Origin: Escherichia phage vB_EcoM_KWBSE43-6
Strand: one strand, 5' to 3'
DNA length: 64,000 nucleotides
Sequence record: NC_048186.1
Below, piece after piece: positions 51,300 to 52,670 of the stretch (position 1 is the first letter of the stretch; each line of letters opens with the position of its first letter). The notes beneath the pieces were generated by a model that worked only from the letters and a program-made list of their open reading frames with translations, ran no database searches and was not told where the DNA came from. A program made the translations under genes and the position numbers.

Positions 51300-52670
51300 T
51301 CATTCAGGTTTAAACTCATTCACAGGAACATTTTCAGGGATAACCAACTCAGGACATGCTGCCTTCATCGGTTCTACATACGGCTTACTACCAACGATCC
51401 AGAACAGAGAGTTCTCGTTCAACAACTCTGGTTTGTGTTCCTGGATCCACGTCATTACCTTGCCTTCATAGCGAGGATGAAGTTCAATGTCACCCCATTG
51501 GTATTCCATCAGATCGTTGTAACGAACCCAATTGGTGGTGTGCAAATCCCAGTGATGAACATTAAAGCGCGGAGAACCATCCGCTCTCTCCAGTTCTTTC
51601 GGGTCGTAACGACCTAACAGGCCAAGCAGTGAAACGCTCTTAGGGGACTGCGGAGCGTCCTTCTTACCATACAGATAATCCGGGTTGTCATGATAATGGC
51701 GAGTGAAGTCCACAATGTGCGGTAAATTGGCATATTCACCAATAATGCGCAGACGACTTTCAATGAAGTCAAGGCGATTAGGACCGATGCCGATCAGGTA
51801 CACATTTTTCAGATTCGGTTTCGGGTGCATTGCCAGGCCCGTCAGGATACTGGTGCAAGAGTTGCATGAACCCGCCGGGATGATCAGATCAGTAATATGA
51901 TCCGGAATGTTGGCGACCTGTTCACCACCCAGCATATGGAATCCAGCGATGCGCTCCGGGGAATGCAATTTATGGTCCAGAGTGATCCCATACTCCAGAT
52001 AATACGCCTTTGGATTCTGTTGTTCAATCAGCTTCTTACAGCGAGGCTGAATGGTGCTGTTATAACCAGAACCGACGAAATTGAAGACGCTACCGAACCA
52101 TGCCGACATTGCTACCATGTCATGGTTCATGCAAGTGGTTGGCTTGGTTGCACCCAAGACTGTAGTCGTATGCCCGCCGAAGTGCCGAGAGACTGCCGTC
52201 GCCATAGGGGACTGCGGACTACCAACGACAGTACCATGGATGATATCGGGGGAGCCTCCGGCTTTCAGATGCTCAACCATGAGCCAGATAGCCTGACGGA
52301 GTTTGCTGCCGTTGATACCCTGTTGCCCGTTTGCATAGTTGGACAGCGGCGCGAAGTAATCTTCACGTTTGAACCAAACCTGTTGGTTGGTTACGGGGTT
52401 TGCAACGAGTTCACACGGGGTGTGTTTGTAGAGATAATCTTCCCAGTGAACCAGGTTGCGGTCTAGAGAAAGAGTTTTGAAGATAGTTTTGTTGTGATGT
52501 TGAGAGATAATACCCCCCATCGACGATTCTTCCTTTAACGCATCGCTGACAAATTCTTCAAGGATATCTTGGTTGATACTACTTTCACAGCTTTGGACTG
52601 TAAATGGAGTTGTATTTGTTTCAACAACAGTTTTGATGTCATTTAAAAGTTTCTGGGTTTTATCGTTCAT
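51300..52670 (-). CDS. PLP-dependent enzyme, fold type II (ACC deaminase / D-cysteine desulfhydrase-like)
   Basis: FKREDYF...GSKLRQ resembles the KRED...GGNKTRK PLP-lysine region of the ACC deaminase family; 456 aa. Confidence 0.45.
   Translation of the reverse strand: MNDKTQKLLNDIKTVVETNTTPFTVQSCESSINQDILEEFVSDALKEESSMGGIISQHHNKTIFKTLSLDRNLVHWEDYLYKHTPCELVANPVTNQQVWFKREDYFAPLSNYANGQQGINGSKLRQAIWLMVEHLKAGGSPDIIHGTVVGSPQSPMATAVSRHFGGHTTTVLGATKPTTCMNHDMVAMSAWFGSVFNFVGSGYNSTIQPRCKKLIEQQNPKAYYLEYGITLDHKLHSPERIAGFHMLGGEQVANIPDHITDLIIPAGSCNSCTSILTGLAMHPKPNLKNVYLIGIGPNRLDFIESRLRIIGEYANLPHIVDFTRHYHDNPDYLYGKKDAPQSPKSVSLLGLLGRYDPKELERADGSPRFNVHHWDLHTTNWVRYNDLMEYQWGDIELHPRYEGKVMTWIQEHKPELLNENSLFWIVGSKPYVEPMKAACPELVIPENVPVNEFKPE

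What the first reader, a model, noticed from the sequence alone, without database searches (positions are those of the whole stretch)
51300..52670. PLP-dependent fold-type II enzyme in a phage replication region
The 456-aa protein carries a KRED...GSKLRQ segment resembling the PLP-lysine region of ACC deaminase/D-cysteine desulfhydrase-type enzymes. Such an enzyme has no obvious role in T4-type replication but fits as a tailoring enzyme (for example decarboxylation of an amino-acid-derived adduct) in a base-modification pathway.
Basis: partly seen in the sequence, partly recalled or inferred. Interest (0 to 1): 0.6.

Follow-up and report, generated by a model that had tools for sequence, protein, structure and literature searches.

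The report
Known phage DNA-thymidine hypermodification PLP decarboxylase

Summary
The window comes from a Klebsiella Taipeivirus (Ackermannviridae). The protein is 88% identical over 396 residues to Salmonella phage ViI gp226. Published work showed gp226 is a PLP-dependent decarboxylase that converts DNA-bound O-serinyl-thymidine to 5-NeOmdU. K123 aligns with ViI K92 and with the PLP lysine K51 of ACC deaminase and D-cysteine desulfhydrase. The predicted structure matches those fold-type II enzymes best. The partner genes sit nearby: 5-hmdU DNA kinase 2, amino-acid:DNA transferase, a thymidylate-synthase-like dUMP hydroxymethylase and a family-B DNA polymerase. One feature appears to be undescribed. 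A disordered insertion (aa 314-369) carries the peptide KSVSLLGLLGR. The same kind of peptide ends the DNA polymerase, the kinase, the transferase and a small Cys-rich protein. The peptide changes in step across phage lineages. In a Vibrio relative all these proteins, plus the gp33 late-transcription coactivator, end in K-x-[KR]-[KR]-L-[WF]. This suggests the whole pathway is tethered to the sliding clamp; that is inferred, not shown.

The parts
51300..52670 (-). Gene for the PLP-dependent decarboxylase (456 aa), ortholog of ViI gp226
   Evidence: ORF found. PHROG 3650 at E=1.4e-233. 88% identity over aa 61-456 to ViI YP_004327553. 100% amino-acid identity to Klebsiella phage KZag1.
52678..52682 (-). 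Shine-Dalgarno AGGAG upstream of M1
   Evidence: Upstream sequence caatgtctacAGGAGaaatagaATG. The same start and an RBS are annotated in Klebsiella phage Magnus.
52491..52670 (-). Lineage-variable N-terminal extension (aa 1-60), low-confidence helices
   Evidence: The PHROG and most phage homologs align only from aa ~60. pLDDT is 35-66. An N-terminal 'MN(D/E)..' helix is shared with PhaxI and Serratia homologs.
52359..52370 (-). KRED motif (aa 101-104); K101, R102 and D104 are invariant in the family
   Evidence: It aligns with KREDC of ACC deaminase and KRDD of DcyD.
52293..52310 (-). GSKLRQ (aa 121-126). The K123 codon at 52302-52304 is the predicted Schiff-base lysine
   Evidence: K123 aligns with ViI gp226 K92, ACC deaminase K51 and E. 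coli DcyD K51. It is invariant in 42 homologs.
52212..52220 (-). S151-P152-Q153, invariant, aligned with the Ser-Asn-Gln/His loop near PLP O3' in ACCD/DCyD. The Asn is replaced by Pro
   Evidence: Alignments; invariance.
51849..51872 (-). G267-S-C-N-S-C-T-S274, the Gly/Ser/Thr-rich loop aligned with the PLP-phosphate-binding loop
   Evidence: It aligns with 'TGSTTAG' of ACC deaminase 1F2D and 'SGSAGTHAG' of DcyD. G267 and N270 are invariant.
51459..51470 (-). Y401-E402-G403-K404 in the invariant 'HP.YEGK' motif, matching 'DPVYEGK' (Y294/E295) of ACC deaminase
   Evidence: Second-domain alignment (the segment score is weak on its own). H398, P399, Y401, E402 and K404 are invariant. The roles of Y294/E295 are from my own knowledge of ACC deaminase.
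51564..51731 (-). Hypervariable, poorly ordered insertion (aa 314-369)
   Evidence: pLDDT is 50-71 for aa 331-370. Segment length ranges from 10 to 60 aa across 42 homologs.
51609..51641 (-). Internal peptide KSVSLLGLLGR (aa 344-354): putative sliding-clamp-binding motif
   Evidence: It matches the C-terminal tails of the DNA polymerase, ADDT, HMUD2 and a small ORF in the same window. It changes in step with those tails in ViI, Erwinia Bue1, Vibrio 1.255.O and a metagenomic phage.
41967..42851 (-). 5-hmdU DNA kinase 2 (ortholog of ViI gp243); tail SSNVLAMMLRK* at 41967-42002
   Evidence: Pfam HMUD2 at E=3.9e-138. 71% identity to ViI gp243. Tail.
40164..41381 (-). Amino-acid:DNA transferase (ortholog of ViI gp247, the serine:DNA transferase); tail KSVNLMSLMKK* at 40164-40199
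   Evidence: Pfam ADDT at E=1.8e-58. 85% identity to ViI gp247. Tail.
44651..47830 (-). Family-B (T4-type) DNA polymerase; tail RRVNLLAMMGKKG* at 44651-44692
   Evidence: Pfam DNA_pol_B_exo1 and DNA_pol_B. Tail.
1..998 (+). Thymidylate-synthase-like gene (ortholog of ViI 'thyA', the presumed dUMP hydroxymethylase), cut by the window start
   Evidence: Pfam Thymidylat_synt at E=2.1e-15. 75% identity to ViI Vi01_060c. The frame is open back to base 3.
7580..7828 (+). 82-aa Cys-rich protein of unknown function ending in the same tail (PKTVNLLSMMGK*)
   Evidence: PHROG 4789 at E=2.8e-41. Its orthologs carry the lineage-specific tail: ViI Vi01_049c ends KVNLLSLMRK* and Vibrio _078 ends KTKRLW*.

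Best explanation
The gene encodes the Taipeivirus ortholog of Salmonella phage ViI gp226. This is a fold-type II PLP-dependent decarboxylase of the ACC-deaminase/D-cysteine-desulfhydrase structural type, and it acts on DNA rather than on a free amino acid.

Pathway (established for ViI, inferred here by orthology):
1. The thymidylate-synthase-like enzyme makes 5-hm-dUMP.
2. The phage family-B polymerase incorporates 5-hmdU in place of T.
3. The 5-hmdU DNA kinases phosphorylate the hydroxymethyl group.
4. The amino-acid:DNA transferase (gp247 ortholog) replaces the phosphate with serine through its side-chain oxygen, giving O-serinyl-thymidine.
5. This enzyme removes the serine carboxylate, leaving 5-(2-aminoethoxy)methyl-dU (5-NeOmdU), which blocks many restriction enzymes.

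Inferred chemistry: K123 holds PLP as the internal aldimine. The free alpha-amine of the DNA-bound serine forms the external aldimine. CO2 leaves, the quinonoid is reprotonated at C-alpha, and the product is released. The invariant E402 (equivalent to ACC deaminase E295) probably protonates the pyridine nitrogen to give the electron sink that decarboxylation needs.

Additional inference: the disordered loop peptide KSVSLLGLLGR tethers the enzyme to the phage gp45-type sliding clamp, alongside the kinase and the transferase.
For: Orthology: 88% identity over 396 aa to ViI gp226, with K123 aligned to K92. Synteny is conserved with ViI: PLP gene, then polymerase, then gp243, then gp247.

Function of the ortholog: omitting gp226 from the lysate mix leaves a +44 u carboxylated intermediate. 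Purified gp226 absorbs at 410-425 nm and converts O-SerT to 5-NeOmdU (PMC8989533; PMC5889632).

Genus-level chemistry: Taipeivirus phiHS2 encodes the same gene set and contains 5-NeOmdU by HPLC-MS (bioRxiv 10.64898/2026.05.19.726188).

Fold and active site: Pfam PALP E=2.2e-5. The family profile hits ACC deaminase and DCyD, and the lysine aligns with K51. Foldseek's top hits are DCyD, 1J0A and ACCD at probability 1.00. K123, S151, G267, N270, Y401, E402 and K404 are invariant in 42 homologs at 40-84% identity.

Pathway partners in the window: HMUD2 E=3.9e-138, ADDT E=1.8e-58, TS-like E=2.1e-15, family-B polymerase.

Clamp tethering: the tails are shared and lineage-specific. In the Vibrio phage the gp33 homolog carries the same tail (Pfam Trans_coact E=8e-15).
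Against: No experiment was done on this protein. PLP binding, decarboxylase activity and the modified base are all carried over from ViI and phiHS2.

The single-sequence Pfam PALP score is below the gathering threshold (24.4 vs 35 bits). phmmer against PDB and the NCBIfam scan find nothing.

Decarboxylation is unusual chemistry for fold-type II enzymes, so the catalytic roles I assign to E402, Y401 and S151 are inference from alignment only. The Asn that normally contacts PLP O3' is an invariant Pro here.

The clamp-tethering part has no physical evidence. ViI gp33 and gp67 do not carry the VNLL-type tail, and the clamp gene is outside the window.
Confidence: 0.9

Rival explanations
1. It is a free-amino-acid catabolic enzyme carried as an auxiliary metabolic gene: a threonine dehydratase/ammonia-lyase (as many GenBank records call it), an ACC deaminase or a D-cysteine desulfhydrase.
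For: GenBank and Pharokka annotations under the match read 'threonine dehydratase', 'threonine ammonia lyase' or 'PLP-dependent lyase/thiolase'. The closest solved structures are DCyD and ACC deaminase, and the YE(G)K motif resembles the ACC deaminase Y294/E295 motif.
Against: The ortholog at 88% identity has a demonstrated decarboxylase activity on DNA-bound serine. No NCBIfam model for these enzymes matches. Identity to DCyD/ACCD is only 13-17%. Threonine and serine dehydratases rank lower (Foldseek E ~1e-7, TM ~0.5). Across phages and metagenomes the gene co-occurs, and is sometimes fused, with ADDT (PF18724). The substrate-side Asn is an invariant Pro.
Confidence: 0.03
2. It is a DNA-adduct decarboxylase, but in this Klebsiella phage the transferase installs a different amino acid. 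The final base would then differ from 5-NeOmdU.
For: Clade-2 transferases differ in substrate: serine in ViI, glycine in M6, putrescine in PhiW-14. The window's transferase is 85%, not 100%, identical to gp247.
Against: At 85-88% identity for both the transferase and the decarboxylase, a specificity switch is unlikely. A Taipeivirus (phiHS2) was shown by MS/MS to carry 5-NeOmdU. A review states that the gene set is conserved across Ackermannviridae (PMC11721090).
Confidence: 0.05
3. The shared tail/loop peptide is not a clamp-binding motif. It could bind another common partner, act as a basic DNA-binding tail, or be a degradation or localisation signal. The PLP enzyme would then find its substrate by diffusion.
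For: No binding data exist. ViI gp33 ends in KSKKLI*, not the VNLL motif, and gp67 has no such tail. In T4, the alpha-GT-gp45 interaction was found not to be the main determinant of modification levels (PMC13216743).
Against: The peptide sits at the extreme C-terminus of the family-B polymerase, where T4-type polymerases carry their clamp-binding motif (PMC7892883). In the Vibrio phage the same tail ends both the polymerase and the gp33 homolog; both are established gp45 binders in T4. Seven ORFs carry it against 0.2 expected by chance.
Confidence: 0.35

Closest known systems
Salmonella phage ViI gp226 (YP_004327553), PLP-dependent O-serinyl-thymidine decarboxylase (Lee et al. 2018 PNAS; Lee et al. 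2021/2022 NAR)
   Same: 88% identity over the whole catalytic core, the same predicted PLP lysine (K92 = K123), the same gene neighbourhood and pathway partners, and the same virus family.
   Different: The N-terminal ~60 residues differ (456 vs 424 aa). The disordered loop differs in sequence (KSVSLLGLLGRYDPKELERADGS vs KSVSLAGLLMGIREKGESEITL). The host is Klebsiella and the genus is Taipeivirus rather than Kuttervirus.
Pseudomonas phage M6 gp52, PLP-dependent C-alpha-glycinyl-thymidine decarboxylase
   Same: According to Lee et al. it is a homologous PLP enzyme that decarboxylates an amino-acid adduct on DNA.
   Different: Its substrate is C-linked glycine and it needs a radical-SAM isomerase first; the product is 5-NedU. 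I did not align it here.
ACC deaminase (1RQX, 1F2D), D-cysteine desulfhydrase (4D8T; E. coli DcyD) and the P. horikoshii homologue 1J0A
   Same: Fold-type II two-domain fold. The KRED...G-x-K-x-R-K lysine region, the Ser loop, the Gly/Ser/Thr phosphate loop and the 'P-x-YEGK' motif are shared.
   Different: Identity is only 13-17%. These enzymes do ring-opening or beta-elimination on free amino acids, not decarboxylation on DNA. The phage family has Pro in place of the loop Asn, a ~60-aa N-terminal extension, and a 10-60-aa disordered insertion.
T4 sliding-clamp-binding motifs (gp43, gp33, gp55, the internal loop of DNA ligase) and the T4 alpha-glucosyltransferase-gp45 interaction
   Same: Short hydrophobic peptides on flexible linkers, at C-termini or in an internal loop. 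One DNA-modifying enzyme (alpha-GT) is known to bind the clamp (PMC7892883, PMC6212786 title, PMC13216743).
   Different: The sequences differ from T4's. Here the motif marks nearly a whole thymidine-hypermodification pathway, and binding has not been tested.

Membership tests
Fold-type II PLP-dependent enzymes (tryptophan-synthase-beta superfamily; Pfam PALP PF00291) | Significant sequence-profile similarity to the family | tested here: met
   Pfam PALP E=2.2e-5 over aa 84-307. The family profile hits ACC deaminase at E=1.1e-5 and DCyD at E=7.8e-4 in PDB. hhalign vs E. coli DcyD gives probability 86% and E=5.2e-6. Several homologs carry precomputed PF00291 hits.
Fold-type II PLP-dependent enzymes (tryptophan-synthase-beta superfamily; Pfam PALP PF00291) | Score at or above Pfam's curated gathering threshold (35 bits) | tested here: not met
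   24.4 bits. This is a curation cut-off for a divergent member, not a structural or chemical criterion. The other rows decide membership.
Fold-type II PLP-dependent enzymes (tryptophan-synthase-beta superfamily; Pfam PALP PF00291) | Two-domain alpha/beta fold of type II | tested here: met
   AlphaFold2 model with pLDDT 86 and pTM 0.82. All of the 50 listed Foldseek PDB hits are fold-type II enzymes. The best is DCyD 4D9E at E=1.7e-10 and probability 1.00; 1J0A has target-normalised TM 0.69.
Fold-type II PLP-dependent enzymes (tryptophan-synthase-beta superfamily; Pfam PALP PF00291) | Schiff-base lysine at the conserved position | tested here: met
   K123 aligns with K51 of Pseudomonas ACC deaminase and K51 of E. 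coli DcyD. It is invariant in 42 homologs and equals K92 of ViI gp226 (K92 was proposed in PMC8989533).
Fold-type II PLP-dependent enzymes (tryptophan-synthase-beta superfamily; Pfam PALP PF00291) | Gly/Ser/Thr-rich loop binding the PLP phosphate | tested here: met
   PAGSCNSCTS (aa 265-274) aligns with the corresponding loops of 1F2D and DcyD. G267 and N270 are invariant.
Fold-type II PLP-dependent enzymes (tryptophan-synthase-beta superfamily; Pfam PALP PF00291) | Bound PLP (absorbance at about 410-425 nm) | not testable with these tools
   This was shown for the 88%-identical ViI gp226 (PMC8989533), not for this protein.
gp226/gp52 family of DNA amino-acid-adduct decarboxylases (thymidine hypermodification) | Orthology to an experimentally characterised member | tested here: met
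   88% identity over 396 aa to ViI gp226 and conserved gene order.
gp226/gp52 family of DNA amino-acid-adduct decarboxylases (thymidine hypermodification) | Co-occurrence with a 5-hmdU DNA kinase, an amino-acid:DNA transferase and a dUMP hydroxymethylase | tested here: met
   HMUD2 at 41967-42851, ADDT at 40164-41381 and a TS-like gene at 1-998 in the same window. Homologs fused to PF18724 exist.
gp226/gp52 family of DNA amino-acid-adduct decarboxylases (thymidine hypermodification) | Decarboxylation of O-serinyl-thymidine in DNA, and 5-NeOmdU in virion DNA | not testable with these tools
   Shown for ViI gp226 and for virion DNA of ViI, CBA120 and Taipeivirus phiHS2.
True ACC deaminase / D-cysteine desulfhydrase (NCBIfam equivalogs) | Match to the curated equivalog models, and the full catalytic signature (K51, S78-N79, Y294, E295) | tested here: not met
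   NCBIfam gives 0 families at E<=1. K, S, Y and E are present, but the Asn is an invariant Pro152. The protein resembles these enzymes in fold and active-site frame but is not one of them.
Threonine dehydratase / ammonia-lyase (the name in many GenBank records) | Match to curated threonine/serine dehydratase models, or closest structural similarity to them | tested here: not met
   No NCBIfam hit. Dehydratases rank below DCyD/ACCD in Foldseek (rank 27 and lower, TM 0.50-0.56). The name is an annotation-pipeline artefact.
Sliding-clamp-binding-motif (SCBM) proteins of T4-type phages | Short hydrophobic peptide on a flexible segment, shared with the polymerase C-terminus and with gp33 | tested here: met
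   The window's polymerase, ADDT, HMUD2 and small-ORF tails match the PLP loop. ViI census: 4 C-terminal hits against <=0.57 expected. Vibrio census: 7 hits against 0.2 expected, including the polymerase and the gp33 homolog. The loop is disordered in the model.
Sliding-clamp-binding-motif (SCBM) proteins of T4-type phages | Physical binding to the gp45-type clamp | not testable with these tools
   The clamp gene lies outside the window (ViI Vi01_135c). No complex prediction or binding assay was possible.

The most novel reading that the evidence does not exclude
The thymidine-hypermodification enzymes of Ackermannviridae all carry the phage's sliding-clamp-binding peptide. This covers 5-hmdU DNA kinase 2, the HMUDK_hel/gp160 protein, the amino-acid:DNA transferase and, through an internal disordered loop, this PLP decarboxylase. 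The pathway would then work as a clamp-tethered 'tool-belt' riding on newly replicated DNA. The peptide co-evolves with the polymerase and gp33 tails across lineages: VNLL(S/A)MM type in enterobacterial phages, K-x-[KR]-[KR]-L-[WF]* in Vibrio phages, N(I/V)L(E/D)F in a metagenomic phage. I found no mention of a clamp in the two primary papers or in an Ackermannviridae review.
Probability: 0.55. Interest if true: 0.55.

Novelty: already known. Interest (0 to 1): 0.22.

Why it matters
The enzyme itself only adds one more ortholog to a published pathway. The practical value is correcting the widespread 'threonine dehydratase' or 'hypothetical protein' annotation in Klebsiella therapeutic-phage genomes. 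It also lets one predict that this phage's DNA carries 5-NeOmdU, so it should resist many restriction enzymes and may complicate sequencing or cloning.

The clamp-motif observation would matter more if confirmed. It would explain how a four-step post-replicative chemistry finds its substrate. It would offer a handle on why only part of the thymidines (about 16-40%) are modified. It would also give a second example, after T4 alpha-glucosyltransferase, of phage DNA-modification enzymes recruited by the replication clamp, this time for a whole pathway.

Tried and rejected
- Single-sequence phmmer against all PDB chains found nothing at E<=10. The family profile was needed.
- NCBIfam gave no match. 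This rules out equivalog-level naming as threonine dehydratase, ACC deaminase or DCyD.
I replaced it with P0004.
- I considered whether M51 is the true start. I rejected this because M1 has the good AGGAG site, because an N-terminal 'MN(D/E)' helix recurs in other genera, and because Magnus annotates the same start.
- Antisense ORFs (51255-51617 +, 51897-2466 +, that is 51897-52466 +) were treated as spurious. I did not search them separately; the conserved, family-matching reading frame is the - strand one.
- I looked for the phage clamp gene in the window, to model a complex. It is not there; in ViI it lies at 91.6 kb, outside the region covered.
- The metagenomic contig L012 gave only a loose resemblance between the polymerase tail (KKVNVLKFFK*) and the PLP loop (TNKLWGRK). 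I do not count it as support.
- ViI gp67, gp55-like, RNase H, ligase and gp32 tails show no VNLL-type motif.
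Full report
**Observation.** The window holds a single 456-aa ORF at 51300-52670 on the - strand. KRED is at residues 101-104 and GSKLRQ at 121-126 (lysine K123). An AGGAG ribosome-binding site lies 7 nt upstream of the first ATG. The ORF is clearly a gene. It matches PHROG 3650 (function listed as unknown) at E=1.4e-233. 263 phage genome records carry it at the DNA level, 346 at the protein level, and the large protein collection holds 619 homologs.

**Source of the window.** The protein is 100% identical to that of Klebsiella phage KZag1. The gene's DNA is 97-98% identical in KZag1, Magnus and HMGUkp5. Magnus is classified as Ackermannviridae, genus Taipeivirus, and a 24-kb stretch around the gene is 95-97% identical to other Klebsiella phages. 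The 'T4-type replication region' description holds. The window encodes:
- a family-B DNA polymerase at 44651-47830;
- UvsX, a DnaB-like helicase and an ATP-dependent ligase;
- a gp59-type helicase loader;
- topoisomerase II subunits.

**What the protein is.** On its own the sequence gives a significant but sub-threshold Pfam PALP match (E=2.2e-5, 24.4 bits against a 35-bit cut-off, aa 84-307). It gives nothing by phmmer against PDB or against NCBIfam. A profile of 42 homologs at 40-84% identity gives clearer results:
- It hits Pseudomonas ACC deaminase 1RQX (E=1.1e-5), yeast ACC deaminase 1F2D, Salmonella D-cysteine desulfhydrase 4D8T and the P. horikoshii homologue 1J0A.
- hhalign against E. 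coli DcyD gives 86% probability and E=5.2e-6 over aa 78-299.
- In both alignments K123 falls on K51, the PLP lysine of those enzymes.
- S151 aligns with the Ser of the substrate loop. PAGSCNSCTS (265-274) aligns with the phosphate-binding loop. The invariant HP-x-YEGK (398-404) matches DPVYEGK of ACC deaminase, which contains Y294/E295. That segment is weak on its own, and the residue roles come from my own knowledge.
- K101, R102, D104, K123, R125, S151, P152, Q153, G267, N270, Y401, E402 and K404 are invariant.

The AlphaFold2 model has mean pLDDT 86 and pTM 0.82, with the core above 90. Its best Foldseek PDB matches are D-cysteine desulfhydrase (E=1.7e-10, probability 1.00), 1J0A (target-normalised TM 0.69) and ACC deaminases. 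Serine and threonine dehydratases, SbnA, CBS and CysM rank below them. Three features set it apart from those enzymes: an invariant Pro where they have the loop Asn, a variable ~60-residue N-terminal extension, and a disordered insertion at aa 314-369.

**What it does.** Salmonella phage ViI (NC_015296) encodes gp226 (YP_004327553; orf00226). The window protein is 88% identical to it over residues 61-456, and K123 aligns with K92. Lee et al. established the following:
- ViI gp67, gp160, gp226, gp243 and gp247 together reconstitute 5-NeOmdU on 5-hmdU DNA (PMC5889632).
- Leaving out gp226 leaves a nucleoside 44 u heavier.
- Purified gp226 is yellow, with absorbance at 410-425 nm.
- gp226 decarboxylates O-serinyl-thymidine in DNA to 5-NeOmdU, and K92 is the proposed aldimine lysine (PMC8989533).

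The partner genes are in the window in the same order as in ViI:
- 41967-42851 is 71% identical to gp243 and matches Pfam HMUD2 at E=3.9e-138.
- 40164-41381 is 85% identical to gp247 (the serine:DNA transferase) and matches Pfam ADDT at E=1.8e-58.
- The thymidylate-synthase-like gene at 1-998 is 75% identical to ViI 'thyA' and is cut by the window edge.

A Taipeivirus, phiHS2, with the same gene set was shown by HPLC-MS/MS to contain 5-NeOmdU, at about 16% of T (bioRxiv 10.64898/2026.05.19.726188). A review states that the gene set is conserved across Ackermannviridae (PMC11721090). The best explanation is therefore the known one: this enzyme performs the last step of 5-NeOmdU synthesis on DNA.

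- **Shown (for the ortholog):** PLP binding, decarboxylation, and the order of steps.
- **Inferred here:** that this protein does the same, and the catalytic roles of E402, Y401 and S151. A Glu at the pyridine nitrogen, as in ACC deaminase, would give the protonated electron sink that a decarboxylase needs. That would explain how a fold usually devoted to beta-elimination does this chemistry.

**Rivals.** The GenBank names 'threonine dehydratase' and 'threonine ammonia lyase' are not supported. No curated model matches, dehydratases are not the closest structures, and the ortholog's activity is known. A different amino-acid adduct in this phage is unlikely given 85-88% identity of both the transferase and the decarboxylase, and given the phiHS2 chemistry.

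**Something the published work does not mention.** Residues 314-369 form an insertion that is poorly ordered in the model (pLDDT 50-71). Its length ranges from 10 to 60 residues among homologs. In this insertion lies KSVSLLGLLGR (aa 344-354). In the same window, very similar peptides form the extreme C-termini of four proteins:
- the DNA polymerase (…KRRVNLLAMMGKKG*);
- the transferase (…GKSVNLMSLMKK*);
- the kinase (…KSSNVLAMMLRK*);
- an 82-aa Cys-rich protein at 7580-7828 (…PKTVNLLSMMGK*).

In the complete ViI genome, the C-terminal motif occurs in 4 of 1232 stop-to-stop ORFs, against at most 0.57 expected. The four are the polymerase, gp243, gp247 and the small protein Vi01_049c. gp160 carries a variant (GSVNLLDRLKKPE*) and gp226 carries the internal copy.

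The peptide is lineage-specific and changes in step across proteins:
- **Erwinia phage Bue1:** polymerase RRVNLMAMLKK…, transferase KSNNLLSLFGR*, PLP loop KAKNLLDIMKAG.
- **Vibrio phage 1.255.O:** seven of 1486 ORFs end in [KR][KR]L[WF]*, against 0.2 expected. They are the polymerase C-terminal piece, HMUD2, ADDT, HMUDK_hel (the gp160 ortholog), the small Cys-rich protein, one unknown ORF, and the gp33-type late-transcription coactivator (Pfam Trans_coact E=8e-15). The PLP enzyme's loop reads KPKTRRLFGG.
- **Metagenomic T4-like phage (L011):** the transferase ends SRNILEFME* and the PLP loop reads ETNVLDFSG.
- **Many other homologs:** the loops contain …LFG, …LWG or …FFG peptides.

In T4, the C-terminal peptides of the polymerase, gp33 and gp55, and an internal loop of DNA ligase, are the sliding-clamp-binding motifs that dock on a hydrophobic patch of gp45 (PMC7892883; PMC6212786). 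T4 alpha-glucosyltransferase also binds gp45 (PMC13216743). ViI encodes a gp45 clamp and its loader.

My inference is that the hypermodification enzymes, including this decarboxylase through its loop, are clamp-tethered. Several caveats apply:
- There are no binding data.
- ViI gp33 ends KSKKLI* rather than in the VNLL type, and gp67 has no such tail.
- One further contig gave only loose similarity.
- In T4, the alpha-GT-clamp interaction was not the main determinant of modification level.

The word 'clamp' does not occur in either Lee et al. paper or in the Ackermannviridae review. A library search for papers combining clamp and hypermodification terms found no such claim. The library is incomplete, so prior description elsewhere cannot be excluded.

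**Verdict.** The enzyme is already known, so interest is low. The clamp-motif loop is the one lead worth a follow-up experiment.

Noticed in passing
window 44651-44692, 41967-42002, 40164-40199, 7793-7828 (tails) and 51609-51641 (internal): A shared peptide of the form (K/R)x(S/T/R)V(N/S)L(L/M)(S/A/G)(L/M)(L/M)(G/K)(K/R) ends the family-B DNA polymerase, the 5-hmdU DNA kinase 2, the amino-acid:DNA transferase and an 82-aa ORF. It also sits inside a disordered loop of the PLP enzyme. It changes in step across phage lineages and looks like a sliding-clamp-binding motif.
   Followed up: yes
window 7580-7828 (+): An 82-aa Cys-rich (CxC…CxxC) protein of unknown function (PHROG 4789) carries the same tail. 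Its orthologs in ViI (Vi01_049c) and Vibrio phage 1.255.O (NVP1255O_078) carry their own lineage's tail. It may be an unrecognised clamp-associated factor.
   Followed up: partly
window 54308-55995 (-): A cluster of seven tRNA genes (Gln, Tyr x2, Asn, Ser x2, Met) lies just upstream of the PLP gene's operon. One tRNA-Tyr call is only 71 nt long.
   Followed up: no
window 50655-51122 (-): A 155-aa protein two genes downstream of the PLP gene has sub-threshold matches to DUF3990 and to ART-PolyVal (ADP-ribosyltransferase of polyvalent proteins). One related record annotates it as 'DarB-like antirestriction protein'.
   Followed up: no
window 15911-16528 (+): A 205-aa ORF with a TnsA-like endonuclease N-terminal domain (E=5.7e-18) sits next to baseplate and tail genes. 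By position it corresponds to ViI's 'head closure/completion' gene, so the domain assignment is unexpected.
   Followed up: no
window 43155-43946 (-): An NT5C-type 5'-deoxynucleotidase homolog (E=8.7e-9) lies between the polymerase and the 5-hmdU DNA kinase. It may help bias the dNTP pool against dTTP.
   Followed up: no
window 20033-20698 (-): A 221-aa ORF has a borderline QueC match (22.0 bits, exactly at the cut-off). ViI annotates its counterpart as QueC-like. Its role in a thymidine-modifying phage is unexplained.
   Followed up: no
L011 7873-12790 (metagenomic contig ERZ27263687 k141_1693436): In an uncultured T4-like phage, the PLP-enzyme homolog sits in a block with a Tet/JBP dioxygenase, an unknown 255-aa ORF, ADDT and a P-loop kinase 3. 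The gp45 clamp and its loader lie about 2 kb downstream of the kinase. This suggests 5-hmU is made by oxidising T in DNA rather than by a dUMP hydroxymethylase.
   Followed up: no
L003 21044-26485 (Vibrio phage 1.255.O): The family-B DNA polymerase is annotated in three separate pieces with intervening ORFs. One intervening ORF (NVP1255O_191) also ends in the clamp-type tail (…ATRRLF*).
   Followed up: no
GenBank records under hits H2-H4, H15, H28, H30, H34, H39 etc.: Orthologs of this gene are widely annotated as 'threonine dehydratase', 'threonine ammonia lyase' or 'hypothetical protein'. The kinase is annotated 'guanylate kinase', and ViI gp67 is annotated 'terminase small subunit'. These names conflict with the published biochemistry.
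   Followed up: partly
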